Below, piece after piece: positions 1,898 through 43,949 of a DNA stretch of 64,000 nucleotides. Made by a program: the position numbers and the translations under genes. Under the pieces are notes generated by a model. That model was given only the letters and a program-made list of their open reading frames with translations, had not been told where the DNA came from and did no database searches. The DNA lies in the IMG/VR virus record IMGVR_UViG_3300045118_000377, positions 31,491 to 95,490 of that record. One strand, 5' to 3'. Each line of letters opens with the position of its first letter. Position 1 is the stretch's first letter. Source of the DNA: a virus.

Positions 1898-2229
1898 CCG
1901 GACAACTTCCCAAGATCACCATCGCACCGATGTTTGATCTGTGGTCGATCATCCACTTCGGATTCTGGGCGTTCATCTCCAGCTCCGTGGGCGCAACGTG
2001 GGAGCCGCCGCTCTGGGTGCATCTGCTCTACACGCTCATCGGCAGCTACGTGTGGGAGGGGATCGAATTCCCTCTTCAGCGGAAGTACCCAGCGCGGTGG
2101 AGCTACCGGCTGGAGAGCTGGCAGAACAGCTTCATCGGCGATCCGATCTCCAACCTGCTCGGTGCCGCTTTCGGCTGGTTCGTGGTGGCGTACTACAGAG
2201 AGCACTACTGGATCTGGAGGAAGCGGTGA
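1894..2229 (+). CDS. Small integral membrane protein, DUF2585-like
   Basis: Hydrophobic helices with DLWSIIH...WEGIE...ESWQNSFIGD motifs; GTGA coupling at both ends. Confidence 0.55.
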   Translation: MTGQLPKITIAPMFDLWSIIHFGFWAFISSSVGATWEPPLWVHLLYTLIGSYVWEGIEFPLQRKYPARWSYRLESWQNSFIGDPISNLLGAAFGWFVVAYYREHYWIWRKR

Positions 2230-2876
2230 GCCGTGACCCAAAGGCGACTCATTGTACGGATCCTCTGGGAGTGCCCGTGGTGCGGGAAGATCTGGACAAA
2301 GAGGCCGTTACCCCGGTCGAAGTGCCCATGCTGTCGTGCAACTGTGGAGGAAAGGGGCTGGGTATCACGATCGGATTCTCTACCACCAACAAGCTCATCT
2401 CGAGAATCATCCGGTGGATCACCAGAGGGAAGGTGAGTCACTCCTGGGTCGCCTACGACGACTTCACGCTTGGCTTGCGCATGGTCTTGCAGGCCGAGGC
2501 CTGGGGCTTCGAAGTACGGCCGTGGGCGAGGTGGTGCAGAGAGAACATCTGGGTGGCGGAGTTCCGTTTGATCAACGGGGCTCAGCACTCAGCGCTCCGC
2601 AAGAGAGCGAGGGAGATCGGGGAGAAGTACGACTACAAGTCGGCCATCGTGGCGGGGGTAATCTCCTGGTTCCGCAGGTGGGTGAGGGCGAAGTTCAGCT
2701 TCCGCTCGCACAGAACTCCTGGGAAACTGATGTGCAGTGAAGCAGTGGTGAGGTTCTTGAAGGACGCCGGGTGTCAAGCTGTGAGAAACTTGGACGAGGA
2801 GCTGACGTCTCCCGCGGAACTCTACGACATCGTTCGGTGCTCCACGGAATTCACTGCGGTGAAACGTGAGAGGTGA
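2226..2876 (+). CDS. Permuted papain-like NlpC/P60 (YiiX/YebB-type) amidase or acyl hydrolase
   Basis: His precedes Cys: ISRIIRWIT-GKVSHS ... GEKYDY ... LMCSEAV. Start reassigned to GTG2226, overlapping the upstream TGA. Confidence 0.75.
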   Translation: MSRDPKATHCTDPLGVPVVREDLDKEAVTPVEVPMLSCNCGGKGLGITIGFSTTNKLISRIIRWITRGKVSHSWVAYDDFTLGLRMVLQAEAWGFEVRPWARWCRENIWVAEFRLINGAQHSALRKRAREIGEKYDYKSAIVAGVISWFRRWVRAKFSFRSHRTPGKLMCSEAVVRFLKDAGCQAVRNLDEELTSPAELYDIVRCSTEFTAVKRER

Positions 2877-4736: not shown

Positions 4737-5687
4737 GTGGCCACCATCAAGATCAAGATCTACGTCTCCGAGCTGGCCAACGTCATGACGTTGTACGACA
4801 AGATCTCCGTGCAACGATCGACGACCGCTCCTCCGTCCACTACCGAGGACGACCTCACAGCCAACTCATCGGCACCAGCGACTCTCGTCGGCTCGCTCGA
4901 GGGACCGTACCTCCTCAACGGCAAGACCCTGACGTTCAAGGTCAACGGCACGCAGGTCTCCGTGACCTTCACGTACGCCGACCCGGTCGCGATCACCCAG
5001 GTCGTGGATGCCGTGAACGCGGCGCTCGCGGCCGCGGGCCTGGGTGCGACAGCCGATGCCTACGGCGGCAAGCTGCGGATCAGGACCACTTCCAACGGCA
5101 CGCAGTTCACGTTGGAGATCATTAGCGGTTCTGCTGTCACGGTTCTGGGGTTCACTGCCGGGCAGAAGGCGCACGGCCTCGCCGCTCACATCACGCTGGT
5201 CGTTGGCACGACCCAGTATGAGTTCGACGACGGCAGCGGGCTGGCCTCCTACTACTACCGATCTCGCTTCTTCAACACCGCCAATGGTACCTACAGCGCG
5301 TGGAGCGACTGGATCCAGGGAACGACTGGAGCCGCCATCCCGTCGGCCGATCTCATCATCGGAAAGGTCAAGCTGGCCGATCTGGATGGGAAGGCACTTC
5401 CGAACCGTGTGATCACCATCGGCAACGCCATGGAGCCCAGCAAGGCGGATGGGTACGGGATCTTCGGGGCGGCGATCACGCTGGAGACTGACGGCACGGG
5501 GCAGGCTGAGACAACGCTTGTGAAGGGATCGCTGGTGGATGTAATCTTCAATGGTACTTCCATCGTCCGGCGAATCCGGGTGCCGTCATCGGGGACTGAG
5601 TTCGACCTCCTGGACGACTCGCTGGTAGTGGGAGACGAGTTCGAAATCCAGGTGCCGGACATCCCCTATGCCCCTCGGAGATCGTAA
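4737..5687 (+). CDS. Virion structural protein with a flagellin-IN/FliD-like module
   Basis: GGAGGAG RBS; carries the LNGKTLTFKVNG...VVDAVNAAL...KLRIRT...VLGF module shared with baseplate proteins. Confidence 0.6.
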   Translation: MATIKIKIYVSELANVMTLYDKISVQRSTTAPPSTTEDDLTANSSAPATLVGSLEGPYLLNGKTLTFKVNGTQVSVTFTYADPVAITQVVDAVNAALAAAGLGATADAYGGKLRIRTTSNGTQFTLEIISGSAVTVLGFTAGQKAHGLAAHITLVVGTTQYEFDDGSGLASYYYRSRFFNTANGTYSAWSDWIQGTTGAAIPSADLIIGKVKLADLDGKALPNRVITIGNAMEPSKADGYGIFGAAITLETDGTGQAETTLVKGSLVDVIFNGTSIVRRIRVPSSGTEFDLLDDSLVVGDEFEIQVPDIPYAPRRS

Positions 5688-8319
5688 GACAGGGCGGTTG
5701 CTTCCAGCCAAGGGCGAATTCGCTCCAGGCATTCCGAAATCAAGAACGATCAGACCTCTGCCGCCGGTGCCGCGCGGCCAGCCCCAGCAGTGGGAGCTCG
5801 CCACTCAGCTCCACCACGCAGAGAAGGCCGGTCCGCACACCGACCTCCGCCTGGTAGATCCCGAAGGCCACGCCCACAGCTGGGTGCTGCCCGACACCGG
5901 CCTCCCAAAACCGGGTGAAAAATTCTACCTCCCGCAGGTCGAGACCCACACGCGGGAGTACGCCGCGCGCAAGGGCGAGTTCGAGCTGCCGGCTGGCTAT
6001 GGCAAAGGGACCGTGACCGGCTCGGGCCTGCGCCCGGTAGACGTCCATTACAGTGAGCCTGGAAAGCTCCGTTTCAGCCTGTTGGAAGGCAAAAACCCTC
6101 AAGATTACATACTGGTACGGTCACCCAAGGGGTGGGTTATCCACAACTTTTCACCGACAGCGGAAGCGGGTGTGCGTGGATCGAAGGGTTTCGCCATCCC
6201 GCAGGCGAAGCCAGCGTACAAGGAAAAGCCAACAACTTCGGTGGAGTTCGACGACCCGAGGGTGATCCATCAGGCCAAGATCGACGGCGCGCACGTGACC
6301 GTCCACATCCCGAACAAGGACAGCCAGGTCCGGGTGTTCTCCTACCGCCCGACCGAGGCTGGGACCGGGGTCATCGAGCATACCCACAAGTTGCCCTCGT
6401 ACCACACGCTGCGTGCCCCTGGGAGCCTCGCTGGCACCGTTCTCCGCGGTGAGGCATGGGCGGCAGGCCCGGACGGCAAGGCGCTGCCAGCGGAGCGTAT
6501 AGGCGGCCTCCTGAACGCGGGCGTGGCCCGTTCCAGAGAGCTCCAGCAGGAGCATGGCCCCCTACGCCTGTCGGTCTTTGACGTGGTGCGGCACAAGGGC
6601 AAGCTCATGGAGAACGCCCCCTACGCCGAGAAGCTCGAGGTGCTCCGGCAGGTGGCGAAGGAGATGCCCCAGCTCGAGCTCCCGCCCACGGCCGAGACGC
6701 CGGAGGAGAAGCTCAAGCTCTTCACTCGCATCCAGGAAGGGAAGGAGCCGGTCACCCGAGAGGGGATCGTGGCCTGGCATCTGGACCGGCCACTGCCAAC
6801 CAAGATCAAGTTCCGACCTGATGTTGATGCCGAGGTCGTGGGAGTGTTTCCAGGTAAGGGGAAGCACGAAGGACGAGCCGGTGGGCTGGTGGTGAAGCTG
6901 CCGGGGTCCGAGGCTACCACGAGAGTTGGAACTGGCTTCTCCGATCAGATGCGCAAGGAGCTGTGGGAGAGACAGCACGAGATCGTGGGGCGCGTGGCGC
7001 GTGTGGCGACTCAGCAGGTGTTCCCGAGCGGCAAGATGCGGGCACCGGCGTTCAAGGACTTCCACACGGAGAAGGGCAAGATCGCTTCGGGCAGGCACAG
7101 AGTCGAACATCTCACTACGGATGAAGAGAAGCTGGAAGCTGCTAAGTTGCAAGAAGGGATCGGTTTCGGACTTGGCCCGATCAAGCCATTGCATCCCAAG
7201 TGGGAGTATTACGGCATTCGTAGTGACGACAACAAGCTGGTTGCTGTGAGCCGAGTCAACAAAGAGCCGTTGAAGGAGTGGGAAGGTTCAAAGGACTACG
7301 AGCAGATCGCTCGGCACAGGCCGGATGTATCTATCTCGGCCACTACCGTCCACCCGGAACATCGCAGGAAGGGCATGGCAAAAGCTCTCCGAGCTCACGT
7401 CCAGGATCGATACAACACGATCATATCTGGTACCGGGGCAGAGTCAGACCTACCAGCTATGTCTAGGATCTTGGAGCAACAGGGGTTCGAGCCTATTTGG
7501 CACCGTGGGGCGAACACGCAGTACGTGTGGAAGAAGCAGGCAATGCTCGAGGCCCTAAAGGATGAACTGAACAAGGTCGCGGCTCCTGATATCAGCCCCG
7601 CGCAAGAAGTGGTTCCAGACCCTGCTCAAGATCGCCCATCGCTTGTTGGCGGCATCGCTGCGACTGGCGGCGGCACGTTGCTGGCGGCCGATATGAGAAA
7701 GCGGTTGCTTGGCGAGAAAGTAATCTACCACGGCACACATTCGGATGAAGCCGCAAAAGGGATCATGGAGCATGGGCTCCAACCTTCGTACGGTGGCACG
7801 GGGGCAGCGAAGCTGACGCCAAACTATGTAGCGCGTAGCAAAGGAAAGGTGCACGTCACGGGCGTTAAGCCTGTTGCGATGATGTTCCGATCGTTCGACC
7901 CAGAGACCTATCGTCGTGAGGGTTACGATATCGGACACCTCGTGCGCGGGAACTTGCCTGGGGCACCAGGCACGGTGGTCAAAGCGCGCATCCCGATGTC
8001 CCTTTGGGACAAGTTAGAGATCGATCCAGACATGCTGGGACATACCCCGCAGAACGAACTTCAAGAGGCCATGATCAAGGAGATCGGAGCTCGTGGGGCG
8101 CACCCCATCGAGTCGAAGTACATCAGTGGGGGCCGTGGCAGTATCAGTCGAATCCCCGAAAAGATCGTGGAACTCGGGAGGGAGTTGCCTGGCTATGTCA
8201 AGAGACACCCTCTGCGTTTCGGGGTTGGAGCGCTTGGAACAGCCGGGGGTCTCTATCTTGCCGGCAGGGGAATAGGATCTCTGCGTAGAAGATTCTCCAC
8301 GCCTACTGAGGAAGGATAG
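5668..8319 (+). CDS. Polyvalent protein: LigD-type 3'-phosphoesterase + ATP-dependent DNA ligase + GNAT acetyltransferase + ADP-ribosyltransferase-like domain
   Basis: PE motifs HHAEKAGPHTDLRL / HSWVLP / ETHTREY / GYGKGTV. Ligase KIDG, LRGE, VFDV, EGIV, KIK and OB-fold VGTGFSD...RAP. GNAT motif A VHPEHRRKGMAKAL. ART-like IYHGT...IMEHGLQP. Gly-rich hydrophobic segments. Confidence 0.8.
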   Translation: MPLGDRKTGRLLPAKGEFAPGIPKSRTIRPLPPVPRGQPQQWELATQLHHAEKAGPHTDLRLVDPEGHAHSWVLPDTGLPKPGEKFYLPQVETHTREYAARKGEFELPAGYGKGTVTGSGLRPVDVHYSEPGKLRFSLLEGKNPQDYILVRSPKGWVIHNFSPTAEAGVRGSKGFAIPQAKPAYKEKPTTSVEFDDPRVIHQAKIDGAHVTVHIPNKDSQVRVFSYRPTEAGTGVIEHTHKLPSYHTLRAPGSLAGTVLRGEAWAAGPDGKALPAERIGGLLNAGVARSRELQQEHGPLRLSVFDVVRHKGKLMENAPYAEKLEVLRQVAKEMPQLELPPTAETPEEKLKLFTRIQEGKEPVTREGIVAWHLDRPLPTKIKFRPDVDAEVVGVFPGKGKHEGRAGGLVVKLPGSEATTRVGTGFSDQMRKELWERQHEIVGRVARVATQQVFPSGKMRAPAFKDFHTEKGKIASGRHRVEHLTTDEEKLEAAKLQEGIGFGLGPIKPLHPKWEYYGIRSDDNKLVAVSRVNKEPLKEWEGSKDYEQIARHRPDVSISATTVHPEHRRKGMAKALRAHVQDRYNTIISGTGAESDLPAMSRILEQQGFEPIWHRGANTQYVWKKQAMLEALKDELNKVAAPDISPAQEVVPDPAQDRPSLVGGIAATGGGTLLAADMRKRLLGEKVIYHGTHSDEAAKGIMEHGLQPSYGGTGAAKLTPNYVARSKGKVHVTGVKPVAMMFRSFDPETYRREGYDIGHLVRGNLPGAPGTVVKARIPMSLWDKLEIDPDMLGHTPQNELQEAMIKEIGARGAHPIESKYISGGRGSISRIPEKIVELGRELPGYVKRHPLRFGVGALGTAGGLYLAGRGIGSLRRRFSTPTEEG

Positions 8320-23386: not shown

Positions 23387-25687
23387 ATGTCCGCCGGGTT
23401 CCTTCAGCGCTTCTACTCCGCCTTCCCCGGCGGAACCATGCAACAGCTTCTCGGGAACGGGACCATCACCGAGGCTGGAGGAGTTCTAACAGTCACCACG
23501 CCCGCGAGCGTGGATTGCGATTGGTGGGGATCGTCTCCGGCCAATGCGCCTATCGCCTATCAGTCAGTTCATGACCGCATAACTGCCTTCGATGGCGTGT
23601 TGAAATTCGAGGCGCGGTGCTATCAGTTCTCAGCGCTGGCCAATACCGAGATGTGGGCTGTGGTCTGGGTGGATCGGTCGACGGCCTACCTGCTTTGTTA
23701 TGGTAACGGCAGCCTGTACGTCAATAGATTCTACGGCGGGTCTAACTCGACGGTGACTTCTAGCACGGCCGTTGCCAGCCCTACCACCAGTCCTCACACA
23801 TACAGGATCTACTGGAACCCCACGTCTCGGCCTCTCTTCATTCAAGAGTCCGATGGTACCAATTTTGTGATCAATGCCAACGAGATCCAATTCTGGTATC
23901 GCATCGGTGATGGCGGCACCTGGACTCAGAAGTACGCACGCTCTATGGAGTTCACGAACGCACTCCGGTTCGGAGTGGGCTGCAAGAACTGGAGCACGTT
24001 CCCCGCGAATTCTAGCCTGTGGAGCTATGCAGGCATCTATCAGTGGGATGCCACAGCCCAGAAGTTCGTCCCGTCCAAGAAGGACGTGCAGCTGACGAAC
24101 ACGCAAGCTGATCCTCTGGAGGTCCTGGCGCTAGAGGATCGAGCCGTCCGGCTCACTGAGAGTGGCTACCCTGCCTTCGACTCGCCGGACGGGCTTGGCG
24201 GCCCGGTCGTTTTGGAAGGAGAGCAGTCGCAGTCGCGCGTCGCGTTCGAGGACAGCGCGCAGATCTTGGACGCCGGAGGCCAGCGCCTAGGATTCATGCC
24301 GGACGTTATGGGTGGCGGGCTTTCCCTCGACGACGTGCTGGCTCTCGAGGACGCGGTCACCTACTACCTGTCGCCCGACGCCGAGTTCAGCACCATCACG
24401 CAAGACACCGACCTCCACTACCACTTCACCCAGCCCAAGCCCTACATCGCTGTCCCCTACGACACCACGGGAGAGGCGTGGGCGAATCCGACCACGACCG
24501 GATTCACGGGCTACGCGCGCAACGGCTACCGATACACCAACGGTGTACAAGACGCAGGCCCGGTTTCAGCTCCTTGGAGGACCGAAGCATCCGGATCCAA
24601 CCGCAGTTCAAGAGGGGATTTCCCGGTCAGAGCGCTGATCGTAGCCACGCGATTGGAGCTTGTGATCTTCGACATGGACTCGTTCAACGGCACGCCGTCC
24701 ACCCTCCGCATGTGGATGCGTTTCTTGTTGGGCAACAGCAGCTCCGACTTCTACGCGCTAGGTCGTGGGCTTGACACCATTCGATCGGTGAGCATGGCCA
24801 ACGGCTTGCTGGCAGTCGGTACGCAGGACACTGGATGGGAACCGGGTCGTCTGCACACGATCGACTTCCGCGCGAACACGCCGGCCACGACATTCAGCCT
24901 CGTGGGGAACGACGGCCAGTGGATAGGACAGGGTACCAAGACCATCGTCGATCGGAACACGAACACCATCTGGTTGTCATCGGGCAGCTACCGGATCACT
25001 CTGTCTCAGCTCCACAGCCTCTCGATGCTGGTTGAAGGCACCTCGACGCACATCGCGATCTCCGGCGAAGACCCGACTCCCAACGTCGTCTCGTTCTCTG
25101 GCAACACCGTGAGCGCCGTGGCTGTGGCAGCGGGCGCGGACATCGGCTCTTCCAACGCCGGGGACACGAGGCAGGTGTACTTTGACGACGTCGGATGGCT
25201 GTGGTTCTCGATCGGCAGCCGACTCTACCGCAACTGCCACGACTGGAGGCACGGGTACATCTGGCCTGATAAGAGCGATCTCCGTCAAGGGACGGTCGAT
25301 ATCGGGTACACGATCACGAAGATCGTGGCGGCCAAGAACAACGTCTACTGTGCGACGGAGAAGGGCGTCTTCAGCGTGTCCAAGGGATCGCTGTCCAACT
25401 ACCTCGCCTACACCATTGTCGGCGGTGGGGGTGGTGGACGTTTGAACGCGCCGCCTGCCGGGGAGATCTTGGTGGGCACAGCGCCTGTCATCAGCGCGCT
25501 CAGGTCTTACACCTTGCTCCAGGGCATCACCGTCGTTCCGTACCTGGTGGTTGGGACCTTGTACTCTGGGGGCGGTGACGGGGGGTTCACCCTCATCCGA
25601 ATGTTCGATGACGTCGTGATCAAATCGCTGATCGTACCCAACCTCATTGAGCCCGGCACGTACATCGCGACCGTGATGATGGCCTGA
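23387..25687 (+). CDS. Tail-associated protein (lectin-like N-terminus, beta-propeller-like C-terminus)
   Basis: AGGAGG RBS; Trp/Tyr/Gly-rich; paralogous to 25690-28539. Confidence 0.6.
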   Translation: MSAGFLQRFYSAFPGGTMQQLLGNGTITEAGGVLTVTTPASVDCDWWGSSPANAPIAYQSVHDRITAFDGVLKFEARCYQFSALANTEMWAVVWVDRSTAYLLCYGNGSLYVNRFYGGSNSTVTSSTAVASPTTSPHTYRIYWNPTSRPLFIQESDGTNFVINANEIQFWYRIGDGGTWTQKYARSMEFTNALRFGVGCKNWSTFPANSSLWSYAGIYQWDATAQKFVPSKKDVQLTNTQADPLEVLALEDRAVRLTESGYPAFDSPDGLGGPVVLEGEQSQSRVAFEDSAQILDAGGQRLGFMPDVMGGGLSLDDVLALEDAVTYYLSPDAEFSTITQDTDLHYHFTQPKPYIAVPYDTTGEAWANPTTTGFTGYARNGYRYTNGVQDAGPVSAPWRTEASGSNRSSRGDFPVRALIVATRLELVIFDMDSFNGTPSTLRMWMRFLLGNSSSDFYALGRGLDTIRSVSMANGLLAVGTQDTGWEPGRLHTIDFRANTPATTFSLVGNDGQWIGQGTKTIVDRNTNTIWLSSGSYRITLSQLHSLSMLVEGTSTHIAISGEDPTPNVVSFSGNTVSAVAVAAGADIGSSNAGDTRQVYFDDVGWLWFSIGSRLYRNCHDWRHGYIWPDKSDLRQGTVDIGYTITKIVAAKNNVYCATEKGVFSVSKGSLSNYLAYTIVGGGGGGRLNAPPAGEILVGTAPVISALRSYTLLQGITVVPYLVVGTLYSGGGDGGFTLIRMFDDVVIKSLIVPNLIEPGTYIATVMMA

Positions 25688-25689
25688 CC

Positions 25690-28539
25690 ATGGCACTGAT
25701 CACCACATACCAAGATCTGTTCCCCAGCTCCACGATCATGAAGCAGTACGCCGGCAATGGCACTGTGAGTGTGCCTGGTGCCGGTGACGCGCGCCTAGTC
25801 GCACCGAACGGCGCGAACTGCAACTATGATCAGAACAACCAGTCCGCCCCGTGCCTCTACGAGAACATCTCCCAGCTGCGTCAGCTCGCCTCGCCAGCGA
25901 TGATGCTGCTAGTTGAGACCAAGCTCAGCAGCCTTACGGGAACGACGACCCAGCGTTTCGCGGACTTGTTCTTCGGCACTGCTCCGCAGTCGATTTCTGG
26001 CGTGTCGAACTACTCCTACCAGCTTGGATTCTACAAGGGTGAGGGCAAGATCATCTGCGACTACTACTACCCCGGTGGTGCCGCACGTCTCTTCACCTCT
26101 GGGGCGGTTTCAGATCCATCCAGTAACCACATCTATCGGATCTACTGGAACACCGGCAAGATCGCGTACGTTCCTGAGACCGGCACGGTAGTCCTGCCAG
26201 ACTATTTGGCGTTCATCTACTCCGTGGACAACGGCACGACGTGGGTGGCGCTCGGCACGCGGGCGAGAGACTTCGATCTCAACACGGCGTTCGCCGGTAT
26301 CGTGCTGAGAAAGTGGGAGACGTCTGCTGTCAACGCGCAAGCGGACTTCAGCTACTTCGTGGCCAAGCAGCTCAACCCCGCTGACGTGGTGATGGCACCA
26401 GATCTTAGCGGGGCCAAGGAGACCAGGCTTGCTCTCGAGGACGCGGCCTCCACGTTGGGTGAGGGAGGTCCAGAGCGCTTCGATGTGCTGGGTACCAAGG
26501 ACGCGGTCGTGCTGCCGTCGACCGACGTCGTTGGCCTGGAAGATGGTCTGGTTCTTCCATCGGTCGGTGGGCCGAAGCCGCGCTACGACTTCCCTCAGAT
26601 CAACGAGGACCCGTCCTTCAGCGACGTCATCGGGTTGGAAGACGGGTTCTTTGTCCAGATCGACGAGACCGACTACATCAAGGGCAAGTACGACGCTGAC
26701 GGCAAGGAGCTTCTCGCGGGCGCAAACGCCAGGCACGTCTTCTACTACGATGCGACCCTCGATCCCTGGCACACGCACGGAGCGGGGCACTACGGAGCGG
26801 GGCGAGACGGCAAGCTCTACTACGACGGGGTAGAGTGCGGCCCAGGGGACTTCGGGACCGTCGCTGGTGGGTTTCGGCGCACGGCCTGGGCCTTCCCCGA
26901 TGGCTTCTTGGACAGAGATCTGATCGCAAAAGCTGCGCAGATAACGATGCCAGCAGATGGCACCCTGCGCTTCACTGTGAACACGAACGGCACGGACATC
27001 GCTAGTTCCTTGCGCTGGTTCTTCACCGGCGACTTCGACGTCCAGGTCGACTACAACATTGTGTCGAATGGCTCCGGGCCGACAGACGGCGGCATAGTGA
27101 TCCAGGCGGTCATGGACTGGAACAACTACACCTACGCCCGACGCAGAATGTTCGGCAGCGGCAACCCAAATTGGGACAAGGACGTTCGGAATAACGGCAG
27201 TTGGGGCAGCTACGCCTCGGTTGGTGGGGCCACTGCTTCTGGGAAGTTGAGGATCACCCGTGTTGGGAGCACGGTCACGTCCTACTACTGGACCGGATCG
27301 GCGTGGGCGGCGATTGGTAGCGGCTCTGCGATGACCTACAACCGACCGATGCTCATCGATCTCGGGTTCTGGTTCAATAGCACACCCACCGGGACAGTGT
27401 TCGAGTTCAGCAACTTTACGATCAATAGCGGCACAACCACGAACCTGATCGGGTGGGCCAGGGAGGCGGCGGGCACCTACCGTGGGTCTCTGGCGGAGTT
27501 TCCGCAGCATGCTCTGATCGCTTGTACGGAGCCGAACATTGACATCATTGACGCTGACACCAACAAGCTCTGGGCGAGCTTCCGTGGTGCAGCCAACAAC
27601 ATGGTGTGGGGTCCGGCTAGCTGGGGGTATGTGCGTCAGGCGGTGATGAAGGACGGCGTGCTGATGGTCGCCCTCCCATCGAGCGGAGGGTATGGGCTCT
27701 GGATCGATTTCACCACAGACTGGGCTCGTTCAGCGCAGGAAGGCGGCGGAGGCGCGTTCTACAACCCAGAGTTGTCCACCAACATGTGGCCTATTTGGTC
27801 GCCGAGTGGAAGCGTCGCAGTCCGGAATAGTGGCAGGAACTATCAGGGGCCGTACGCCAACTGGGTGCTCCAGAGCTATTACGTTTACTGGTGCGATCTC
27901 CTGCATGACTCCGGTTATCAGTACCGCCTGTTCGCCACAGCGGCCGGTATCACTCTCCAGCGCTGGCAGCGCTGGAAGTTCCAAGGCGCTAACGACGCTC
28001 ACCTCGACACTCCCTACAAAGGCGTGTCCATGCAGACTGGGACCATGCGCTGGGCACAGTTCCAGCCGTCAACCCGTGACCTGCTGTACCACGATCGGTC
28101 GTCCCTCTACATCACCCACTTCGCCGCGTGGAATGCGATCATTTCAGGTGGTGGCGGCACGTGGGTGGAAAATCACACCTACACCCTCTCTGGGACGATT
28201 GACGAGGGCGACCGCGCACTGGCCCAGGACGCGATGGTGGTGGACGGGAACTACCTCTACTACGCCCGCAAGGAGGGTGTGTACAGGATGGATCTGACCA
28301 CCGGCACATCGGTGCTCCTGTACGGCATCGTCGGTTCTGGAGCAACGCACGAGATCCTTCCCACATCCCGCGCGGTGATCTCCGTGGCCTACGGTGTCGA
28401 CAACTCCGTTCCCATCCTCCTGGTGGGCATGACCTACCCCGACCTCAGTGTGGCTGTGAATCTGAACACCAACGTGCTCTACTGGAAGGGTCGTCTGGAT
28501 GACAGCCACACACCCTACTCCATGGCGGTGGGAGCATGA
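25690..28539 (+). CDS. Tail-associated protein with an inserted concanavalin/LamG-like domain
   Basis: TGDFDVQVDY...GKLRITRVGSTVTSYY lectin-like insert; otherwise colinear with 23387-25687. Confidence 0.6.
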   Translation: MALITTYQDLFPSSTIMKQYAGNGTVSVPGAGDARLVAPNGANCNYDQNNQSAPCLYENISQLRQLASPAMMLLVETKLSSLTGTTTQRFADLFFGTAPQSISGVSNYSYQLGFYKGEGKIICDYYYPGGAARLFTSGAVSDPSSNHIYRIYWNTGKIAYVPETGTVVLPDYLAFIYSVDNGTTWVALGTRARDFDLNTAFAGIVLRKWETSAVNAQADFSYFVAKQLNPADVVMAPDLSGAKETRLALEDAASTLGEGGPERFDVLGTKDAVVLPSTDVVGLEDGLVLPSVGGPKPRYDFPQINEDPSFSDVIGLEDGFFVQIDETDYIKGKYDADGKELLAGANARHVFYYDATLDPWHTHGAGHYGAGRDGKLYYDGVECGPGDFGTVAGGFRRTAWAFPDGFLDRDLIAKAAQITMPADGTLRFTVNTNGTDIASSLRWFFTGDFDVQVDYNIVSNGSGPTDGGIVIQAVMDWNNYTYARRRMFGSGNPNWDKDVRNNGSWGSYASVGGATASGKLRITRVGSTVTSYYWTGSAWAAIGSGSAMTYNRPMLIDLGFWFNSTPTGTVFEFSNFTINSGTTTNLIGWAREAAGTYRGSLAEFPQHALIACTEPNIDIIDADTNKLWASFRGAANNMVWGPASWGYVRQAVMKDGVLMVALPSSGGYGLWIDFTTDWARSAQEGGGGAFYNPELSTNMWPIWSPSGSVAVRNSGRNYQGPYANWVLQSYYVYWCDLLHDSGYQYRLFATAAGITLQRWQRWKFQGANDAHLDTPYKGVSMQTGTMRWAQFQPSTRDLLYHDRSSLYITHFAAWNAIISGGGGTWVENHTYTLSGTIDEGDRALAQDAMVVDGNYLYYARKEGVYRMDLTTGTSVLLYGIVGSGATHEILPTSRAVISVAYGVDNSVPILLVGMTYPDLSVAVNLNTNVLYWKGRLDDSHTPYSMAVGA

Positions 28540-38063: not shown

Positions 38064-38432
38064 ATGGAACAGTTGGACAAGCTCACGGACGTGTTCTTCA
38101 ACTGGCAGGTACTACTGATCTCCTTCGTGTCGTTCGCGGTCGTGAGCGTCATCAGACAGATCGGCACGAAGAAGGACAAGGACAAGAACGTCGTTGGCGG
38201 TTGGGCTGAGAACAAGTACTTCAAGATCATCCTGCCGATATTGCCCTACGGTATCACCCTCGGCCTGGTCTTCATTCCAGGCGTGCCGTTGCCGGAGACC
38301 GTGGTGAAAGCCGCGCCTAAGTTGCTGGCGGTCAAGATCCTCTACGGTATCTACGCCGGATGGCTGTCCGACAAGAGCTATCAGGTGGTGAAGAAGGTGC
38401 TCGAGAAGTTCGGGGTGATCTCGGAGGGCTGA
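38064..38432 (+). CDS. Holin-like membrane protein (about 3 TM helices)
   Basis: Three hydrophobic segments with basic loops, directly after the tailspike. Confidence 0.55.
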   Translation: MEQLDKLTDVFFNWQVLLISFVSFAVVSVIRQIGTKKDKDKNVVGGWAENKYFKIILPILPYGITLGLVFIPGVPLPETVVKAAPKLLAVKILYGIYAGWLSDKSYQVVKKVLEKFGVISEG

Positions 38433-38433
38433 G

Positions 38434-38481
38434 ATGCTCGATCGTGGTATGCTCGACGCTTTCTGGGATGAGATGCAATGA
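38434..38481 (+). CDS. 15-aa mini-ORF MLDRGMLDAFWDEMQ (not in ORF track)
   Basis: GGAGG RBS; fills the gap between TGA38432 and ATG38478 (ATGA overlap); AFWDEM is identical to the motif at 42913-42930. Confidence 0.5.
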   Translation: MLDRGMLDAFWDEMQ

Positions 38482-38801
38482 CCAGGGTGTGGGAGTGGCT
38501 CAAGATCTACTGGAAGTGGCTCATCCTGCCGTTGTGGGCGGCTTCCATCGTCCTGGTCTGGCTGTTCACCCGCGGCGGGGTGTTGAAGAAACCACCCGTG
38601 AGCGGTACGACAGACCAGGCGGCCAACAACGCGGTCAACGGTGTCATCAACGCGTCCGAGAACAAGGACCAGGCCATCGCCAAGCTCGAGACCCAGTACC
38701 AGGACAAGCTCAACAAGATGTCCGAGGCACAGCGGGCCGAGTGGGAGCAACAGAAGGCCAAGCCCATCGAAGAGGTTGCCTCGTGGATCGATCGGTTCTG
38801 A
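38478..38801 (+). CDS. Membrane-anchored coiled-coil protein (i-spanin-like)
   Basis: N-terminal TM helix followed by a coiled coil; adjacent to the holin-like gene. Confidence 0.5.
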   Translation: MTRVWEWLKIYWKWLILPLWAASIVLVWLFTRGGVLKKPPVSGTTDQAANNAVNGVINASENKDQAIAKLETQYQDKLNKMSEAQRAEWEQQKAKPIEEVASWIDRF

Positions 38802-39274
38802 TCAAGGAAGCGACCTACCGCGCCTTCATCGACGAGCTGGAGAAGATAGCCAGCTCGATGTCGGACGAGGAGTGGGAGAAGCTTGCGCGCATCTTCGAGC
38901 GCATGGGCCTCGGCATGAAGCGCAAGGTTGTGCCGGCGCTCAAGCGCGGCTACGAGAGCGCGCAGGTCGGGGCCGGTCAGTTCATGAGCGGCCACCACGG
39001 TCACCTCTTGGGTGAGGCCGCGCAAGAAGGTCTCCAGCACGGCGGCATGTGGCACTCCATTGACCCCTCCCACGCCCTGACTGGAGGAGCCGAAGGAGCC
39101 GCAGCGATGCTGGCCCCGGCCGCGGCCGCCGCCGCCGTGAAGGGCATCAGGAAGGCCGCGCCTATCGTGAAAGAGAAGGCGACGCGAGTGGGTGGCTATC
39201 TGAGGAGTGCGTTCGGCGGCGGTGGCCCTCCCAGCGTTCCGCCCGTCTTCGCCCCGTCGTTCGTCGGACCATGA
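38783..39274 (+). CDS. KxA-tagged small Gly/Ala-rich protein
   Basis: GTG38783 after GAGG; begins IKEATYRAFIDELEKIAS; has an Ala/Gly hydrophobic stretch. Confidence 0.6.
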   Translation: MDRSVLIKEATYRAFIDELEKIASSMSDEEWEKLARIFERMGLGMKRKVVPALKRGYESAQVGAGQFMSGHHGHLLGEAAQEGLQHGGMWHSIDPSHALTGGAEGAAAMLAPAAAAAAVKGIRKAAPIVKEKATRVGGYLRSAFGGGGPPSVPPVFAPSFVGP

Positions 39275-42114
39275 GCCGCCTGCTGCCCAAGATCGCCCAG
39301 GAGCACAAGCTCCAGGGGCACACCGAGGTCCAGGGCATACCCATAGCGATCGAGAACCGCAAGGGATCTGTCCGTGAGGGGACGACTGAGGACGGTCATC
39401 ACTGGCGCACGAAGATGAAGTTCCCCTACGGCTACATCGAGGGGACCAAGGGCGCAGACGACGAGCCAGTGGACGCCTATGTCGGGCCGGACAAGGACGC
39501 GCCCTACGCCTACGTCGTCCACCAGCACAAGCCGGATGGGACGGGCTTCGATGAAGACAAGGTCATGCTCGGGTTCGACAGCAAGGAGGACGCGCGCAAG
39601 GCCTACCTCGAGCACTACGACTCCGACAAGTTCCTCGGCCCCATCTCCCAGGTCACGATGGAGCGTCTGCAGGAACTTGTGGACAGCGGCAAGAAGCTGG
39701 AGAAGATCAGCCATCCGCATGTCCGCATGGAGAAGCCCGGAAGGTGCGGGGCGGCCGCGTTGAGGATCGCTCTTCGCGTTCACGGCATGGACATGCCGGA
39801 GGGCACGGCCGCGAAGTTGGTGAACACTGACAAGGAGGGGGCTGACCCGGAGTCTCTGGCCTCGGTCGCTGAAGCTGCTGGTCTGGATGCTGAGATCGTG
39901 GACGGCATGAAGTTCCACGAGCTCGCATGGCACACCGCAAAGGGCAGGCCGGTGGTCGTGGCATTCCAAGCGTGGCGCGGGGACACCAAGCGCCCAGCGT
40001 GGGAGGACAACTGGGACGACGGTCACTACGCCGTAGTGCTGGGCGTGGAGAACGACAAGGTTCGGATCAGTGACAGCTCGGATAGCGACAACAGCTACCT
40101 GCTAGATCGCGCGGAATTCGAGCGCCGATGGCATGACGTGGACAAGGACGGCACAGTCCGAGATCATCTTGGGATCGTGATCTCTCCGAAAATGGAGAAG
40201 CGTGCCTACAACAGGGGCGTGCATTTTCATCTGATGAACAAGACCATCCAGAAGGCGTTTGGGGACGACCTGACTCCAGAGGCCAGGCGTGTGATGTTGG
40301 ATCAGGCTCGAGAGTCAGATGTAGGGCTTCGACACCCGTGGAATCCATGGAATGCGATCCAGCACGCATTCCCCACGCTCTCGAAAGAGGAGCTTCGAGA
40401 AGAGACGCAGGGCAAGCACGAAGAGGCGATCGGATCTCTTGCCAGGGCAATCGGGGACAGGCATCTCTCCGACGTCCGCAGGTCTGTCATGGCCACGGGC
40501 GCACTGAAGGACCTGGCCCAGGCACAGCATGCCCGTATCGATGTCCACTCTCACCACGACAAGCCGCTGGAGATCGCCGAAGCCAAGGGCGGCCCAGAGC
40601 GTGTGCAGGAGTTCGTCAAGCTGCGCAGTGCGCTCCGCGATCGGCTAGGTCCGTACGGTGGGTTCGTGTCCTCTGGTATCGAGCATCTCAGATCTGGGTT
40701 CGATCTGAGGCTGAAGATGCCGGTCCTGCGCAGCGAGCTCGACAAGTTCAATCCAGAGAAGTGGGAATCGGACAAGAGCACGTTGCGCACAGCCGATGAG
40801 TACGGGCGGGAGATCAAGCACGATCTTCTGAGAACGCTGAAGTCCGAACACGACCTGAAGCCGCGCGAGGCAAAGAACGCGGTCCACGAGTTCCTGCGGT
40901 CGTTCTCGCCCGGGGTCGTTGACGAGGCTGCTGCTGAGGTGAAGGACACCGCCAAGTTCCTGGCGAGCACTGCCGGCAGGTTGTGGCGCGGTGGTGAGAA
41001 GACGTCAGCCGTCGAGCCGAAAGGGATCAAGTTCCTCTACATGGATACAGGCGGTGGCCATCGCGCACAGGCGCAGGCAATGGTGGAGGCCGCACAACAG
41101 CGTGGTATTCCGGCCGAGGCCATCCATTGGGGAGAGTTCGCGAAAGGCACGTCGCTCAAGAGCTACGAGAAGGCGTACACGGACTACCTTCAGGACAAGA
41201 AGGGCCTGCCTGCGTTAGGGTTGGCGCACATCAGGTTCCACATGATGGGGACCGACAAGGAGAAGCTTCGCAACTGGGTCGACCAGAACAGAGACCAGGC
41301 GATCGTCGTGACTCACGAGCATCTTCAACGTCACTTCAAGGGCATCGAGCATCCAGTTCATGTCCTGCACTCAGATCCCGTGAAGTGGCCAATGGCTTCC
41401 AAGGTGGACAAGCCTGATCGTATCCACATCGGCCTCCCAGAAGTTCTGAAAGAGCTCGGTGTGAAGAACAAAGTGCCGATCAGCAACGTCCCTGTAGGAA
41501 AGGGCGTGCTCCAACCCAAGGGCAAGTCGGGCTTGATCGACCCTGAGAAGTTCAACGTCACGGTGAGTGGTGGCGGTCTTGGCGCTGAGGTCGCTCCGCT
41601 CACAAAGCAGGTGTTGAAGTCAGATCTGCCGGAAGACGCAGTTGTTCATGCAGTTGCCGGCAAGAACAAGGGCGCGTTGAAGGAGCTACGAAGCATCGCC
41701 AAGAAGGATCCTCGTCTTCAGGTCCATGGCTTTGCACCGTTGCCTACGATGATGCGGGAGGCAGATCTGAACGTCGTTCGTACGCACGGCACGACCTTCG
41801 CGGAGACCGTGGCGTCGGGCAAGCCCGCGGTCTACTACGGGCCGAAAGCGCCGCTGGTGGGCAAACTGCATCCGGTCACCGATTTCCAGGCAGATCTGAC
41901 AAGAAGAACTGCGTTGTATGCGGGAGAACAGGTGGGGCATCCTGTTGCTATCGGTCTGGAGAACGTACCCGATGCCGTGGAAGAGGCGGTAGAGAACGCT
42001 CCGAAGTTCAGGCGACTGGCTGTCGAGGCCAAGAAACAGATGGGTAACCCCGCGGACCAGGCTGTGAAGCAGATCATGAAGCCACGTAGGGGATACCTGC
42101 GCCCGAAGGAGTAG
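39271..42114 (+). CDS. Polyvalent protein: inorganic-pyrophosphatase-like + C39 peptidase + Zn phospholipase C/P1-like + MGDG-synthase/UgtP-like glycosyltransferase
   Basis: InPase IENRKGS..YGYI.GT.GADDEPVD..DEDKVMLGF. C39 CGAAAL...GHYAVV...ISDS. PLC/P1-like YNRGVH...QHARIDVHSH. GT-B TGGGHRAQA...VTH...GGGLG...AGKN...VHGF...MREADL...GTTFAE...GKP. Confidence 0.75.
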   Translation: MSRLLPKIAQEHKLQGHTEVQGIPIAIENRKGSVREGTTEDGHHWRTKMKFPYGYIEGTKGADDEPVDAYVGPDKDAPYAYVVHQHKPDGTGFDEDKVMLGFDSKEDARKAYLEHYDSDKFLGPISQVTMERLQELVDSGKKLEKISHPHVRMEKPGRCGAAALRIALRVHGMDMPEGTAAKLVNTDKEGADPESLASVAEAAGLDAEIVDGMKFHELAWHTAKGRPVVVAFQAWRGDTKRPAWEDNWDDGHYAVVLGVENDKVRISDSSDSDNSYLLDRAEFERRWHDVDKDGTVRDHLGIVISPKMEKRAYNRGVHFHLMNKTIQKAFGDDLTPEARRVMLDQARESDVGLRHPWNPWNAIQHAFPTLSKEELREETQGKHEEAIGSLARAIGDRHLSDVRRSVMATGALKDLAQAQHARIDVHSHHDKPLEIAEAKGGPERVQEFVKLRSALRDRLGPYGGFVSSGIEHLRSGFDLRLKMPVLRSELDKFNPEKWESDKSTLRTADEYGREIKHDLLRTLKSEHDLKPREAKNAVHEFLRSFSPGVVDEAAAEVKDTAKFLASTAGRLWRGGEKTSAVEPKGIKFLYMDTGGGHRAQAQAMVEAAQQRGIPAEAIHWGEFAKGTSLKSYEKAYTDYLQDKKGLPALGLAHIRFHMMGTDKEKLRNWVDQNRDQAIVVTHEHLQRHFKGIEHPVHVLHSDPVKWPMASKVDKPDRIHIGLPEVLKELGVKNKVPISNVPVGKGVLQPKGKSGLIDPEKFNVTVSGGGLGAEVAPLTKQVLKSDLPEDAVVHAVAGKNKGALKELRSIAKKDPRLQVHGFAPLPTMMREADLNVVRTHGTTFAETVASGKPAVYYGPKAPLVGKLHPVTDFQADLTRRTALYAGEQVGHPVAIGLENVPDAVEEAVENAPKFRRLAVEAKKQMGNPADQAVKQIMKPRRGYLRPKE

Positions 42115-42117
42115 GTG

Positions 42118-43362
42118 ATGCCTTTCAAGAGCGAGGCACAACGCCGTCTGTTCTGGGCCAAGGTCGGCCGCGGGGAGATCAGTCGGGATACGGCCAAGGA
42201 ATGGGAGGACGCCACGCCTGGGGGGAAGCTACCGGAGCGCGTCAAGCAGTCCAAGGAGAAAGAGGGAACCATGCTGAAGACAGCTCGCATCTTTGGTGCC
42301 AGCACACCAGAGGATGTCATTGCGACCACCACGATCCCCTATCGCCATCGCGCGGCCGCCTACAAAGAGTACCTGCAGCAGAAGAGCGAAGAAGATCCAA
42401 CGCCGTGGGGACACGCTCTCTTGGGTGGTGGGGCCATCGGTGCGGGGCTCGGCGGCCTGGTTGGGGCGAGTGGAGGTCTTCGAGGAGCTGGTCTCGGCGC
42501 GCTCATTGGGGGACTCGGCGGGGCCGGTCTCGGCGCGCTTGCTAGGGCGCACGACGTCGGTAACATCGAGCGTGCCCAGAACGTGCTGCGGGGAGGCGAC
42601 ATCGACGCCGACCTGGCTTCACAGATCGGTCACGTGGAGAGCAGACGGCGGCTGGACGATTACCTCACTCGCGAGCGCCGGCACCGCGAGATGGTCGGCA
42701 CGATCGGCGGCCTGAAAACCGCGGCGCTGTCCGAGGGCGGCAAGGTCGAGATGGAACACGCCGACACCATCCGACGTCTCATGGCCAACTCCGGTGCGTC
42801 CGTGGAGGAGGCAGCGAACATGATCGCGAACGATCACGAGAAGGAGCTGGGTAGGGACTACTACCCGGCGCTCAAGGGCATGGAGGCCGCGCTCGAGCAG
42901 ACGAAGAAGGCTGCCTTCTGGGACGAGATGGGCAAGATCGCGGCGAGCGGGAAGGGCGTGCTCAAGAAGCTGCTGAAGGCCACCAAGCCATCCGCGATTG
43001 AGGGCGAGCTTGGCAAAGGCACGGTCCCGGAAGAGCTGAGGACTGGCGCGCTCGACAAGCTCAAGAAGCTCATTTCCAAGCCCGTTGGGCCCGAAGCCAT
43101 GCACGGCGAGCACAGGCTGGTGTCCATCCCGGAGATCTTGCAGAAGACCGGCTCGGCTGAGGAGCTGACGACGGGTGAACGCATCAGGAAGGTCGGCCCG
43201 CTGCTGGGAGGCCTCGCAGGTGCCGGCCTCGGCCTGCACTCGGGGCTGCGAAGCGGGAACGTCTTGGCCAAGACACTGGGCGGGGCCGCCGCCGGCACAA
43301 CTGCAGGCTGGGTGCCGGACATCATCGCCAGCGGCGTCGAGGGCATCAGGGGCCGCGCATGA
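42118..43362 (+). CDS. KxA-segmented protein with glycine-zipper membrane segments and a DUF5661-like domain
   Basis: MPFKSEAQRR N-terminus; GxxxG zippers; GKVEMEH...IANDH.KE..DYYPAL..ME; linkers KTA, KTAA, KKAAFWDEMGKIAAS, KTGSA. Confidence 0.65.
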   Translation: MPFKSEAQRRLFWAKVGRGEISRDTAKEWEDATPGGKLPERVKQSKEKEGTMLKTARIFGASTPEDVIATTTIPYRHRAAAYKEYLQQKSEEDPTPWGHALLGGGAIGAGLGGLVGASGGLRGAGLGALIGGLGGAGLGALARAHDVGNIERAQNVLRGGDIDADLASQIGHVESRRRLDDYLTRERRHREMVGTIGGLKTAALSEGGKVEMEHADTIRRLMANSGASVEEAANMIANDHEKELGRDYYPALKGMEAALEQTKKAAFWDEMGKIAASGKGVLKKLLKATKPSAIEGELGKGTVPEELRTGALDKLKKLISKPVGPEAMHGEHRLVSIPEILQKTGSAEELTTGERIRKVGPLLGGLAGAGLGLHSGLRSGNVLAKTLGGAAAGTTAGWVPDIIASGVEGIRGRA

Positions 43363-43949
43363 GGTTCTTCATCCTCATCCTATCTTTCCTTACATGCTCC
43401 TACGTGATGGCGGCCCCGCCGGCAGTCCCGGCCGCTCGCAGGGAGGCCCCTGTCGCCGCCCCGGCTGCCCCGGGAACCCCGTGCGTGGAGGCGACCTACG
43501 CCGACCCCAAGCGGGAGCCCAACTACGCCTGCAGAGGCCCCTGGGAGGACGTGCTGGTGCCTGACGTCCAGTTCCGGCCCTCCATCGGCCTGGCCAAGGG
43601 CAAGCCCGTCAGCCTGCCGGCGCTCGAGTACGACGCGGTCCTCATGGACCGGGCCAAGGTCATCGAGCTGGGCCTACGCATCGAGGCCCTACGGAGACTC
43701 CGATGGATGGACCTCCATCGAAGTTCGGACCTGCTCACGATCGAGCAGAAGTACCTGCGGGACACGGCTGCGGAGAAGGACAAGCTCGCGCAGAGCCAGG
43801 TGGAGTCGTACAAGAACCAGCTCGTGCAAACGCAGGCGGAGCTCGCAAAGGAGCGGCGCTGGTACCGCAGCTGGACCTTCGGTCTGGTTGTGGGCGTGGT
43901 TCTAACCGCCGCGACCGCCGCGGGCGTGGCGATCGCTGTCCGCAAGTAG
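43359..43949 (+). CDS. Secreted coiled-coil protein with C-terminal TM anchor (spanin-like)
   Basis: Signal peptide, Pro/Ala linker, coiled coil, RWYRSW followed by a TM helix. Confidence 0.5.
   Translation: MRFFILILSFLTCSYVMAAPPAVPAARREAPVAAPAAPGTPCVEATYADPKREPNYACRGPWEDVLVPDVQFRPSIGLAKGKPVSLPALEYDAVLMDRAKVIELGLRIEALRRLRWMDLHRSSDLLTIEQKYLRDTAAEKDKLAQSQVESYKNQLVQTQAELAKERRWYRSWTFGLVVGVVLTAATAAGVAIAVRK

What the first reader, a model, noticed from the sequence alone, without database searches (positions are those of the whole stretch)
38434..38481. An 'empty cassette': a 15-codon ORF that is just the core of the tag
MLDRGMLDAFWDEMQ has its own RBS and is translationally coupled to the next gene. 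It reproduces the tag core (compare MLEALKDEL and AAFWDEM) but stops before KIA and has no cargo. It looks like the scar of a deleted cargo gene or a free competitor peptide, and supports the tag being an independent mobile unit.
Basis: partly seen in the sequence, partly recalled or inferred. Interest (0 to 1): 0.7.

Follow-up and report, generated by a model that had tools for sequence, protein, structure and literature searches.

The report
Leftover stub of a deleted phage cassette gene
The 15-codon reading frame is real and is most likely the front-end remnant of a small "leader-plus-cargo" gene that related lake and sediment phages still carry at exactly this spot, so it marks a fast-changing cassette slot and is probably not a working peptide.

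Summary
Observation confirmed. ORF 38434-38481 has a GGAGGG ribosome-binding site 5 nt upstream. It starts 1 nt after the stop of a holin-like gene, and its TGA overlaps the ATG of a conserved 107-aa membrane-protein gene.

Its last 10 residues score 2nd of 152,801 six-frame 10-mers in the genome against a leader profile built only from other phages.

In 28 distinct related loci, the gap between the same two flanking genes runs from -4 to 1430 nt:
- 9-10 loci are empty.
- 17 hold one or two genes that all begin with the same acidic leader (two hydrophobic residues, D-E-L-E-K-I, then a small residue), followed by unrelated, mostly very basic cargo of 75-472 aa.
- One other locus (L025) holds a second, independent leader-only stub.

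On a tree of the flanking genes, the window's two nearest relatives both carry an 81-82 aa cassette that starts at the same TGAGATG junction. Deletion of the cargo in the window's lineage is therefore the best reading.

The stub lacks the invariant Lys-Ile-small residues, so a competitor-peptide role is unlikely. At most it relays translation to the next gene.

What the leader does is inferred only. By analogy with T4, it may target proteins to the virion. No expression data exist. This scan's first-stage notes had already flagged the motif on this genome.

The parts
38064..38432 (+). Left flank of the slot: a 122-aa, three-helix membrane protein (holin-like; the name is a weak lead only)
   Evidence: tblastn found homologues in 34 of 35 related loci. 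No Pfam or PHROG hit. The ESM Atlas gives a weak lead to Phage_holin_5 (score 0.83-0.85, TM about 0.5).
38423..38428 (+). Shine-Dalgarno-like GGAGGG, 5 nt before the stub's ATG. It lies inside the last codons of the holin-like gene.
   Evidence: Sequence. GGAG-type sites precede 12 of 26 genes against 10% of random 18-mers. The sister locus L007 has GGAGAAG at the same place, serving its full cassette.
38434..38481 (+). 15-codon stub ORF: the 5' remnant of a leader-led cassette gene. Its stop overlaps the next gene's ATG.
38458..38475 (+). Truncated leader core (A-F-W-D-E-M). The K-I-small part and all cargo are missing.
   Evidence: Ranks 2nd of 152,801 against the profile. Nucleotide match to the L007 cassette leader over GCTTTCT..GATGAG.TG.
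38478..38801 (+). Right flank of the slot: a conserved 107-aa single-pass membrane protein
   Evidence: 22 homologues at 46-100% identity, aligned from Met1. 36 related loci.
38783..39274 (+). Intact leader-led gene (163 aa). Its GTG start overlaps the end of the 107-aa gene. Leader core at 38822-38851.
   Evidence: The start position is conserved (M/V-D-R...) in L004, L005, L007, L009, L012, L013 and L029. Best-scoring leader in the genome.
39271..42114 (+). 947-aa multi-domain protein (InPase, C39 peptidase, and a glycosyltransferase-like C-terminus named from first-reader note e1-5988775 and not detected by Pfam here). Its first 13 residues sit where the L012 homologue has an intact leader.
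   Evidence: Pfam InPase 1.3e-42 and Peptidase_C39 3.3e-11. The 149-aa InPase protein of L012 is 68% identical and begins with a full leader.
42913..42942 (+). Internal leader copy in the 415-aa protein (42115-43362). It has the same rare F-W...M variant as the stub.
   Evidence: The sister-lineage homologue (L008, about 6536-6565) reads A-F-W-D-E-M-Q, identical to the stub over 7 residues.
7555..7581 (+). Degenerate internal leader copy in the 883-aa ligase-containing protein (5668-8319)
   Evidence: 7th best profile score. Ligase domains.

Best explanation
The ORF is the 5' stub of a leader-led cassette gene. In this clade of uncultured large phages, the boundary between a holin-like gene and a conserved 107-aa membrane-protein gene is a hot spot. 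It holds zero, one or two small genes, each beginning with the same roughly 10-residue acidic amphipathic leader followed by unrelated, mostly very basic cargo. In the window's lineage a deletion removed the rest of the leader (Lys-Ile-small) and all the cargo. It left the ancestral ribosome-binding site, the start codon and 14 further codons, which now end in a TGA that overlaps the ATG of the 107-aa gene. Shown: the anatomy, the homology to the leader, the variability of the slot, the cassette in the nearest relatives, and a second independent stub. Inferred: the stub is still translated because its start signals are intact, and its only likely use is to hand ribosomes on to the 107-aa gene. 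That gene is stop/start-coupled to whatever precedes it in most relatives. The peptide itself is probably inert. Also inferred, with about 45% confidence: the intact leader is a short helix that targets diverse proteins for packaging into the virion so they are ejected with the DNA, as the T4 capsid targeting sequence does.
For: 1. Anatomy.
2. Non-chance match to the leader: 2nd of 152,801 10-mers, using a profile built without the window.
3. The slot length runs from -4 to 1430 nt over 34 loci. Every gap of 96 nt or more encodes a leader-led ORF.
4. The sister locus L007 has an 81-aa cassette starting at the same TGAGATG junction, with nucleotide similarity across the leader.
5. Tree of the two concatenated flank proteins: the window is sister to L007 (99/96) and then L009 (92/93), and both carry the same 81-82 aa cassette family. 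Slot state changes at least 12 times on 26 tips.
6. L025 carries an independent leader-only ORF of about 30 codons. It is collinear for 27 codons with the 180-aa gene of L021.
7. Tight stop/start geometry at both slot boundaries in most loci.
8. The leader is selected as a peptide: synonymous codons vary freely.
9. For the virion-targeting idea: 16 of 17 slot cargos have pI 9.8-12. Cargos include an SNF2 helicase resembling modules of DarB-like proteins. InPase domains are predicted to be virion-packaged (PMC5512222) and are leader-led in L012. An AlphaFold model puts the leader in a helix, residues 3-26, at modest confidence. [quoted passage not shown]
Against: No expression data exist for this uncultured phage. 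The contigs of the closest relatives (79-74% identity in the 107-aa protein) could not be fetched, so no intermediate allele or deletion junction was seen. The stub's leader variant (F-W...M-Q) matches the internal leader of the 415-aa protein family better than that of its positional counterpart in L007. The lost cassette may therefore not have been the L007 type, or a short conversion patch is involved. The tree is unrooted, so polarity rests on parsimony. The leader's function is by analogy only: no receptor, no cleavage site and no recognisable prohead protease of the T4 or HK97 type was found. The head genes could not be identified.
Confidence: 0.8

Rival explanations
1. The stub is a functional micropeptide: a decoy or competitor that occupies the leader's receptor, or a small regulator of packaging.
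For: It keeps a good ribosome-binding site and start codon. A second leader-only ORF exists in the same slot in L025. The sequence is unchanged in contigs from two other lake samples, though those strains are nearly identical throughout.
Against: It lacks the invariant Lys and the Ile/small pair of the leader. Ten related loci have nothing in the slot, and the two stubs differ in length and cut point (15 against about 30 codons). The pattern therefore looks like random truncation. Any deletion that spares the 5' end of a cassette leaves leader sequence, so recurrence needs no selection.
Confidence: 0.07
2. The stub is kept as a recombination landing pad: a half-leader of DNA that helps capture new leader-led cassettes from co-infecting phages.
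For: Cassettes move as leader-plus-cargo units between positions. The stub's core equals the internal leader of the 415-aa family over 7 residues and 21 of 24 nt, which hints at leader-to-leader copying.
Against: Only about 18 nt of leader DNA remain, and leader DNA varies at synonymous sites. The conserved flanking genes offer hundreds of bases of better homology for exchange. Empty slots without any leader are common and evidently get filled or emptied anyway.
Confidence: 0.06
3. It is a chance ORF in a 45-nt intergenic spacer that happens to resemble the motif.
For: It is very short, and short ORFs are common in 60% G+C DNA.
Against: It ranks 2nd of 152,801 against an independent profile. 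It is in the same slot, at the same start junction and on the same strand as real cassettes. No promoter, terminator, Rfam family or unusual RNA fold offers another reason for the spacer.
Confidence: 0.02
4. The leaders, including the ancestor of the stub, are double-glycine-type leaders cut by the phage's own C39 peptidase domain (39271-42114), not packaging signals.
For: A C39 domain with Cys and His is encoded 0.8 kb downstream. The leader's E-L-x-x-I spacing equals that of bacteriocin double-glycine leaders (established knowledge of that family; the comparison is by eye).
Against: No C39 domain was found in any related locus. None was found in five related virus records, two of them 100% complete, although those records carry many leaders. 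The positions where Gly-Gly should lie are not conserved. Leaders also occur at C-termini and inside proteins.
Confidence: 0.05

Closest known systems
T4 and T-even internal proteins (IPI-III, Alt) with their N-terminal capsid targeting sequence
   Same: A short conserved N-terminal sequence heads otherwise unrelated, often small and basic proteins, and the set of cargo genes differs between related phages. [quoted passage not shown]
   Different: There is no sequence homology and no T4-type prohead protease by Pfam (though the control did not ring). Here the motif also works, or at least persists, inside proteins and at C-termini. Packaging and cleavage are untested. The stub itself has no described T4 counterpart.
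Phage polyvalent proteins (Iyer, Burroughs, Anand, de Souza, Aravind 2017; PMC5512222)
   Same: Neighbouring leader-bearing proteins carry InPase, peptidase, ligase and SNF2 helicase modules typical of polyvalent proteins, which are predicted to be packaged and injected.
   Different: Here most modules are separate small genes, each with its own leader, and are not joined in one giant polypeptide. A search of that paper's main text for 'linker' and 'C39' found no occurrence of either.
Encapsulation peptides of bacterial microcompartments and cargo-loading peptides of encapsulins
   Same: Short amphipathic helices at the N-terminus, C-terminus or between domains that load unrelated cargo into a protein shell (general knowledge, not tested here).
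   Different: Different sequence and a different shell. No evidence here of binding to any shell protein.
Double-glycine leader peptides processed by C39 peptidases
   Same: N-terminal position, acidic helix, E-L-x-x-I spacing, and a C39 domain encoded nearby in this genome.
   Different: No conserved Gly-Gly. C39 is absent from the relatives that carry the leader.

Membership tests
Leader-led cassette genes of this phage clade (defined here) | Lies between the holin-like gene and the 107-aa gene, on the same strand, and starts at or next to the holin-like gene's stop | tested here: met
   TGA-G-ATG junction identical to L007, L012 and L029.
Leader-led cassette genes of this phage clade (defined here) | N-terminal leader, first half (small residue, two hydrophobic residues, D-E-L/M) | tested here: met
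   Profile rank 2 of 152,801.
Leader-led cassette genes of this phage clade (defined here) | Leader, second half: invariant Lys, Ile/Leu, then a small residue | tested here: not met
   The ORF stops one codon after the Met of the core. Lys is present in 48 of 48 intact leaders.
Leader-led cassette genes of this phage clade (defined here) | Cargo of about 60 aa or more after the leader | tested here: not met
   No residues follow the truncated core. Cassettes elsewhere are 75-472 aa.
T4-type capsid targeting sequence system | One short N-terminal sequence shared by unrelated proteins of one phage | tested here: met
   Six leader copies plus the stub in this genome, and about 11 in the complete relative G004. 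Seven of the 11 sit about 8 residues after Met, two more sit 4-5 residues after the start, and two are internal or C-terminal.
T4-type capsid targeting sequence system | Tagged proteins are found inside the capsid and the tag is cut off by the prohead protease | not testable with these tools
   Uncultured phage. No proteomics, and no RNA run listed.
T4-type capsid targeting sequence system | gp21-type (Peptidase_S77) prohead protease | tested here: inconclusive
   No match in 5 records, but the control genomes did not ring either. A ClpP/crotonase-like protein at 1941-2876 is the only protease candidate.
Double-glycine leader / C39 peptidase system | Gly-Gly (or Gly-Ala/Ser) at the last two leader positions | tested here: not met
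   The position right after Ile is small, the next is variable, and there is no fixed pair.
Double-glycine leader / C39 peptidase system | C39 peptidase co-occurs with the leaders | tested here: not met
   0 of 35 loci. 0 of 5 related virus records, 2 of them complete.
Regulatory upstream ORF / leader peptide of the 107-aa gene | A short ORF conserved upstream of the regulated gene across relatives | tested here: not met
   10 loci have the two flanking genes abutting or overlapping with no ORF between them.

The most novel reading that the evidence does not exclude
Leader-only stubs (this one and the one in L025) are not just debris. They would be maintained elements of a previously undescribed virion-loading system, in which a roughly 10-residue acidic helix loads a changing set of basic proteins and enzymes into the capsid. 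The stubs would act either as decoys that tune loading or as DNA landing pads that let the slot recapture cassettes.
Probability: 0.1. Interest if true: 0.75.

Novelty: new variant of a known kind. Interest (0 to 1): 0.5.

Why it matters
On its own the stub is an ordinary deletion scar. Its value is as a marker. It pinpoints a gene boundary that turns over faster than the flanking genes diverge. It also shows that the units gained and lost there all carry one short leader that is absent from Pfam, PHROGs, NCBIfam and the searchable literature.

If that leader is a virion-loading signal, this uncultured clade of 100-190 kb lake and sediment phages would offer a second, independent example of the T4 capsid-targeting principle, with a simple sequence rule for listing candidate ejected proteins from sequence alone. 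It would also offer a compact tag for loading foreign proteins into phage particles.

The stubs show that cargo is lost as well as gained. They also show that deletions which keep stop/start coupling to the next gene are the ones that survive.

Tried and rejected
**Tools and searches that gave nothing**
The contigs of the closest homologues (P0002-P0008, 79-69% identity) could not be read, so the deletion junction could not be reconstructed.
- Single-protein scans of viral contigs found nothing. The exact 26-nt stub sequence is absent from viral contigs.
- No relatives in 50,697 deposited phage records, by DNA or protein search. None in GTDB genomes.
- Sequencing runs: 11 lake-water metagenome runs hold the stretch, and no RNA holder is listed.
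- Laid contigs of four runs show no insertion, deletion or joint at the stub, and two contigs cover it without change. Contigs of three runs end between 38374 and 38438. I draw no conclusion from that.
- No Pfam, PHROG or NCBIfam family for the leader or for most cargos. No paper holds the string FDELEKI.
- The Atlas gave nothing usable for the 163-aa protein.
- Head genes could not be named by Pfam, PHROGs or PDB sequence search.
- No S77 or S78 protease was found.
- No promoter, terminator, Rfam match or unusual fold at the stub.

**Ideas rejected**
- C39 as the general leader-processing enzyme.
- A nucleic-acid-level function for the leader.

**Not run**

Full report
**What is there**

The window is bases 31491-95490 of a 95,490-bp virus record. 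CheckV rates the record at about 52% complete.

At 38434-38481 on the + strand there is an ATG, 14 further codons and a TGA. GGAGGG lies at 38423-38428, 5 nt before the ATG. The upstream 122-aa membrane-protein gene (38064-38432) ends 1 nt before the ATG. The stub's TGA overlaps the ATG at 38478 of a 107-aa gene (ATGA).

That ATG is the true start of the 107-aa gene: 22 homologues at 46-100% identity align from their first residue. GGAG-type ribosome-binding sites precede 12 of 26 genes on this strand, against 10% of random 18-mers.

**Is the resemblance to the tag real?**

The motif is two hydrophobic residues, D-E-L/M, any residue, K-I, then a small residue. It occurs six times in the 95-kb genome, plus the truncated copy in the stub. 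It is abundant in related loci.

I built a position matrix from 48 leaders of other loci, leaving the window out, and cut it to the 10 columns that the stub can supply. The stub's last 10 residues rank 2nd among 152,801 stop-free 10-mers of the six-frame translation of the whole genome. The seven best are all leader sites.

Synonymous codons at the conserved positions vary freely: GAC 22 against GAT 20, four Ala codons, and four or more Leu codons. The motif is therefore selected as a peptide, not as DNA or RNA. Nothing else explains the spacer: there is no promoter, terminator, Rfam family or unusual fold.

**The slot**

An alignment of the 107-aa family retrieved 6 viral and 30 metagenomic loci. 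In 34 of them the holin-like gene lies upstream on the same strand. The distance between its stop and the 107-aa start ranges from -4 to 1430 nt.

After removing duplicate contigs:
- 9-10 loci have the two genes abutting or overlapping.
- 17 have one or two genes in between.
- 2 have only a short ORF (the window and L025).

Every insert of 96 nt or more encodes a protein that begins with the leader 4-10 residues after its start codon. The cargos are 75-472 aa and belong to several unrelated families. One of these is an SNF2 helicase (L028).

In 16 of 17 cases the part after the leader is strongly basic, with pI 9.8-12 and net charge +5 to +21.

The same leader-led families occur on the other side of the 107-aa gene in other phages. 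The L016 slot gene against the L005 downstream gene gives 45% identity (E = 3e-34). The L028 slot helicase against the L005 downstream helicase gives 58% identity. Leader plus cargo therefore moves as a unit.

**Polarity**

On a maximum-likelihood tree of the concatenated flank proteins, the window is sister to L007 (support 99/96), and L009 is next (92/93). Both carry the same 81-82 aa cassette family (alignment A2).

In L007 the cassette starts at the same TGAGATG junction, behind a GGAGAAG site. Its leader DNA aligns with the stub over GCTTTCT..GATGAG.TG. Loss of the cassette body in the window's lineage is the parsimonious reading.

Slot state changes at least 12 times on 26 tips, hardly fewer than with shuffled labels (mean 13.9). 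The slot therefore turns over faster than its flanks diverge.

L025 has a second, independent stub. It is an ORF of about 30 codons, collinear for 27 codons with the start of the 180-aa gene in L021, and it ends 14 nt before the 107-aa gene.

**What the stub does**

It lacks the Lys (48 of 48), the Ile/Leu and the small residue (47 of 48) that are the best-conserved leader positions. Ten relatives have nothing in the slot. A decoy or competitor role is therefore unlikely.

At most boundaries of this gene string, stop and start codons overlap or lie within about 14 nt (ATGA, TGATG, TGAGATG). The deletion that survived in the window restores this geometry.

I infer that the stub is translated from its inherited start signals. 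If it has any use, it is to deliver terminating ribosomes to the 107-aa start. This is inference, because no expression data exist. No RNA run is listed for this phage, and contigs from other lake samples show the stub unchanged but are nearly identical throughout.

**One unexplained detail**

The stub's core has the rare F-W...M-Q variant. This variant is otherwise seen only in the internal leader of the 415-aa protein of this genome (42913-42942) and of its homologue in the sister lineage L008. With L008 the stub shares 7 consecutive residues and 21 of 24 nt. Either the lost cassette was not of the L007 type, or leaders are occasionally copied onto one another.

**What the leader is for (inference)**

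- It is absent from Pfam, PHROGs and NCBIfam and from the searchable literature.
- An AlphaFold model of the L007 cassette family puts it in a helix, residues 3-26. Mean pLDDT is 64, and 70 for the first ten residues.
- In the complete 178-kb relative G004, about 11 copies lie on one strand across the genome. Seven of the 11 sit about 8 residues after the start codon and two more sit 4-5 residues after it. One lies inside a protein and one at a C-terminus.
- Leader-bearing proteins include small basic proteins, glycine-rich hydrophobic proteins, an SNF2 helicase, a ligase-containing multi-domain protein and InPase proteins.
- InPase domains of phage polyvalent proteins are predicted to be packaged and injected (PMC5512222).
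- T-even internal proteins are a diverse set sharing only a capsid targeting sequence (PMC3012670).

The most coherent reading is a virion-loading helix for proteins ejected with the DNA. I put this at about 45%.

The alternative that the nearby C39 peptidase cuts these leaders fails as a general rule. C39 is missing from all related loci and from five related virus records, two of them complete. No Gly-Gly pair is conserved either.

Some leaders are decaying in place:
- The first residues of the window's InPase protein sit where L012 has a full leader.
- The 269-aa protein upstream of the window (G000 bases 24228-25037) has a degraded copy where G004 has an intact one.

**Verdict**

The 'scar of a deleted cargo gene' reading is supported (about 0.8). 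The 'competitor peptide' reading is not. The stub is ordinary in itself, but it marks a cassette hot spot and a leader that has not been described.

Noticed in passing
L025:7901-7990: A second leader-only ORF of about 30 codons in the same slot of a different phage. It is collinear with the first 27 codons of the 180-aa slot gene of L021, then stops 14 nt before the 107-aa gene.
   Followed up: partly
window 38458-38478 against L008:6536-6559 and window 42913-42933: The stub's leader core is identical over 7 residues (21 of 24 nt) to the internal leader of the sister lineage's 415-aa homologue, and it shares the rare F-W...M variant with the window's own 415-aa protein. This suggests leader-to-leader copying, or that a different cassette was lost.
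   Followed up: partly
window 39271-39312: The first 13 residues of the 947-aa InPase/C39 protein occupy the place of an intact leader in the 149-aa stand-alone InPase protein of L012 (68% identity over the domain). The InPase module also ends in a leader-like L-E-K-I-S, exactly where the L012 protein stops.
   Followed up: partly
G000 bases 24228-25982 (L047:8228-9982), upstream of the window: Three consecutive genes carry the leader at an internal, a C-terminal and an N-terminal position. The first also has a decayed N-terminal copy that aligns with an intact leader in G004. The same trio exists in G004 at 60.7-62.3 kb.
   Followed up: partly
window 43359-43949: A 196-aa protein with a lipoprotein-like signal (Cys at about residue 13), a long helical middle and a C-terminal membrane helix. 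It is conserved downstream in 20 related loci. Its topology resembles a unimolecular spanin, which would fit a lysis role for the holin-like and 107-aa genes.
   Followed up: no
window 39700-42114: The C39 peptidase part has no counterpart in any related locus, and the C-terminal part after residue 560 is shared only with L004. These look like lineage-specific cargo modules added to a conserved InPase head.
   Followed up: partly
window 38374-38438: Logan contigs of three lake-water runs (X8, X9, X10) all end within this 65-nt stretch at the end of the holin-like gene and the start of the stub. This could reflect coexisting slot alleles in the population or only assembly chance.
   Followed up: no
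window 1941-2876: A 311-aa protein with a ClpP/crotonase-like PHROG match (E = 7.6e-11). It is the only candidate for a head-maturation protease. No S77 or S78 protease was found in this or four related records.
   Followed up: no
G000 bases 25986-26810 (L047:9986-10810): A 274-aa protein with a Sigma-70 region 3 match, encoded directly after the leader-bearing trio and before the structural genes.
   Followed up: no
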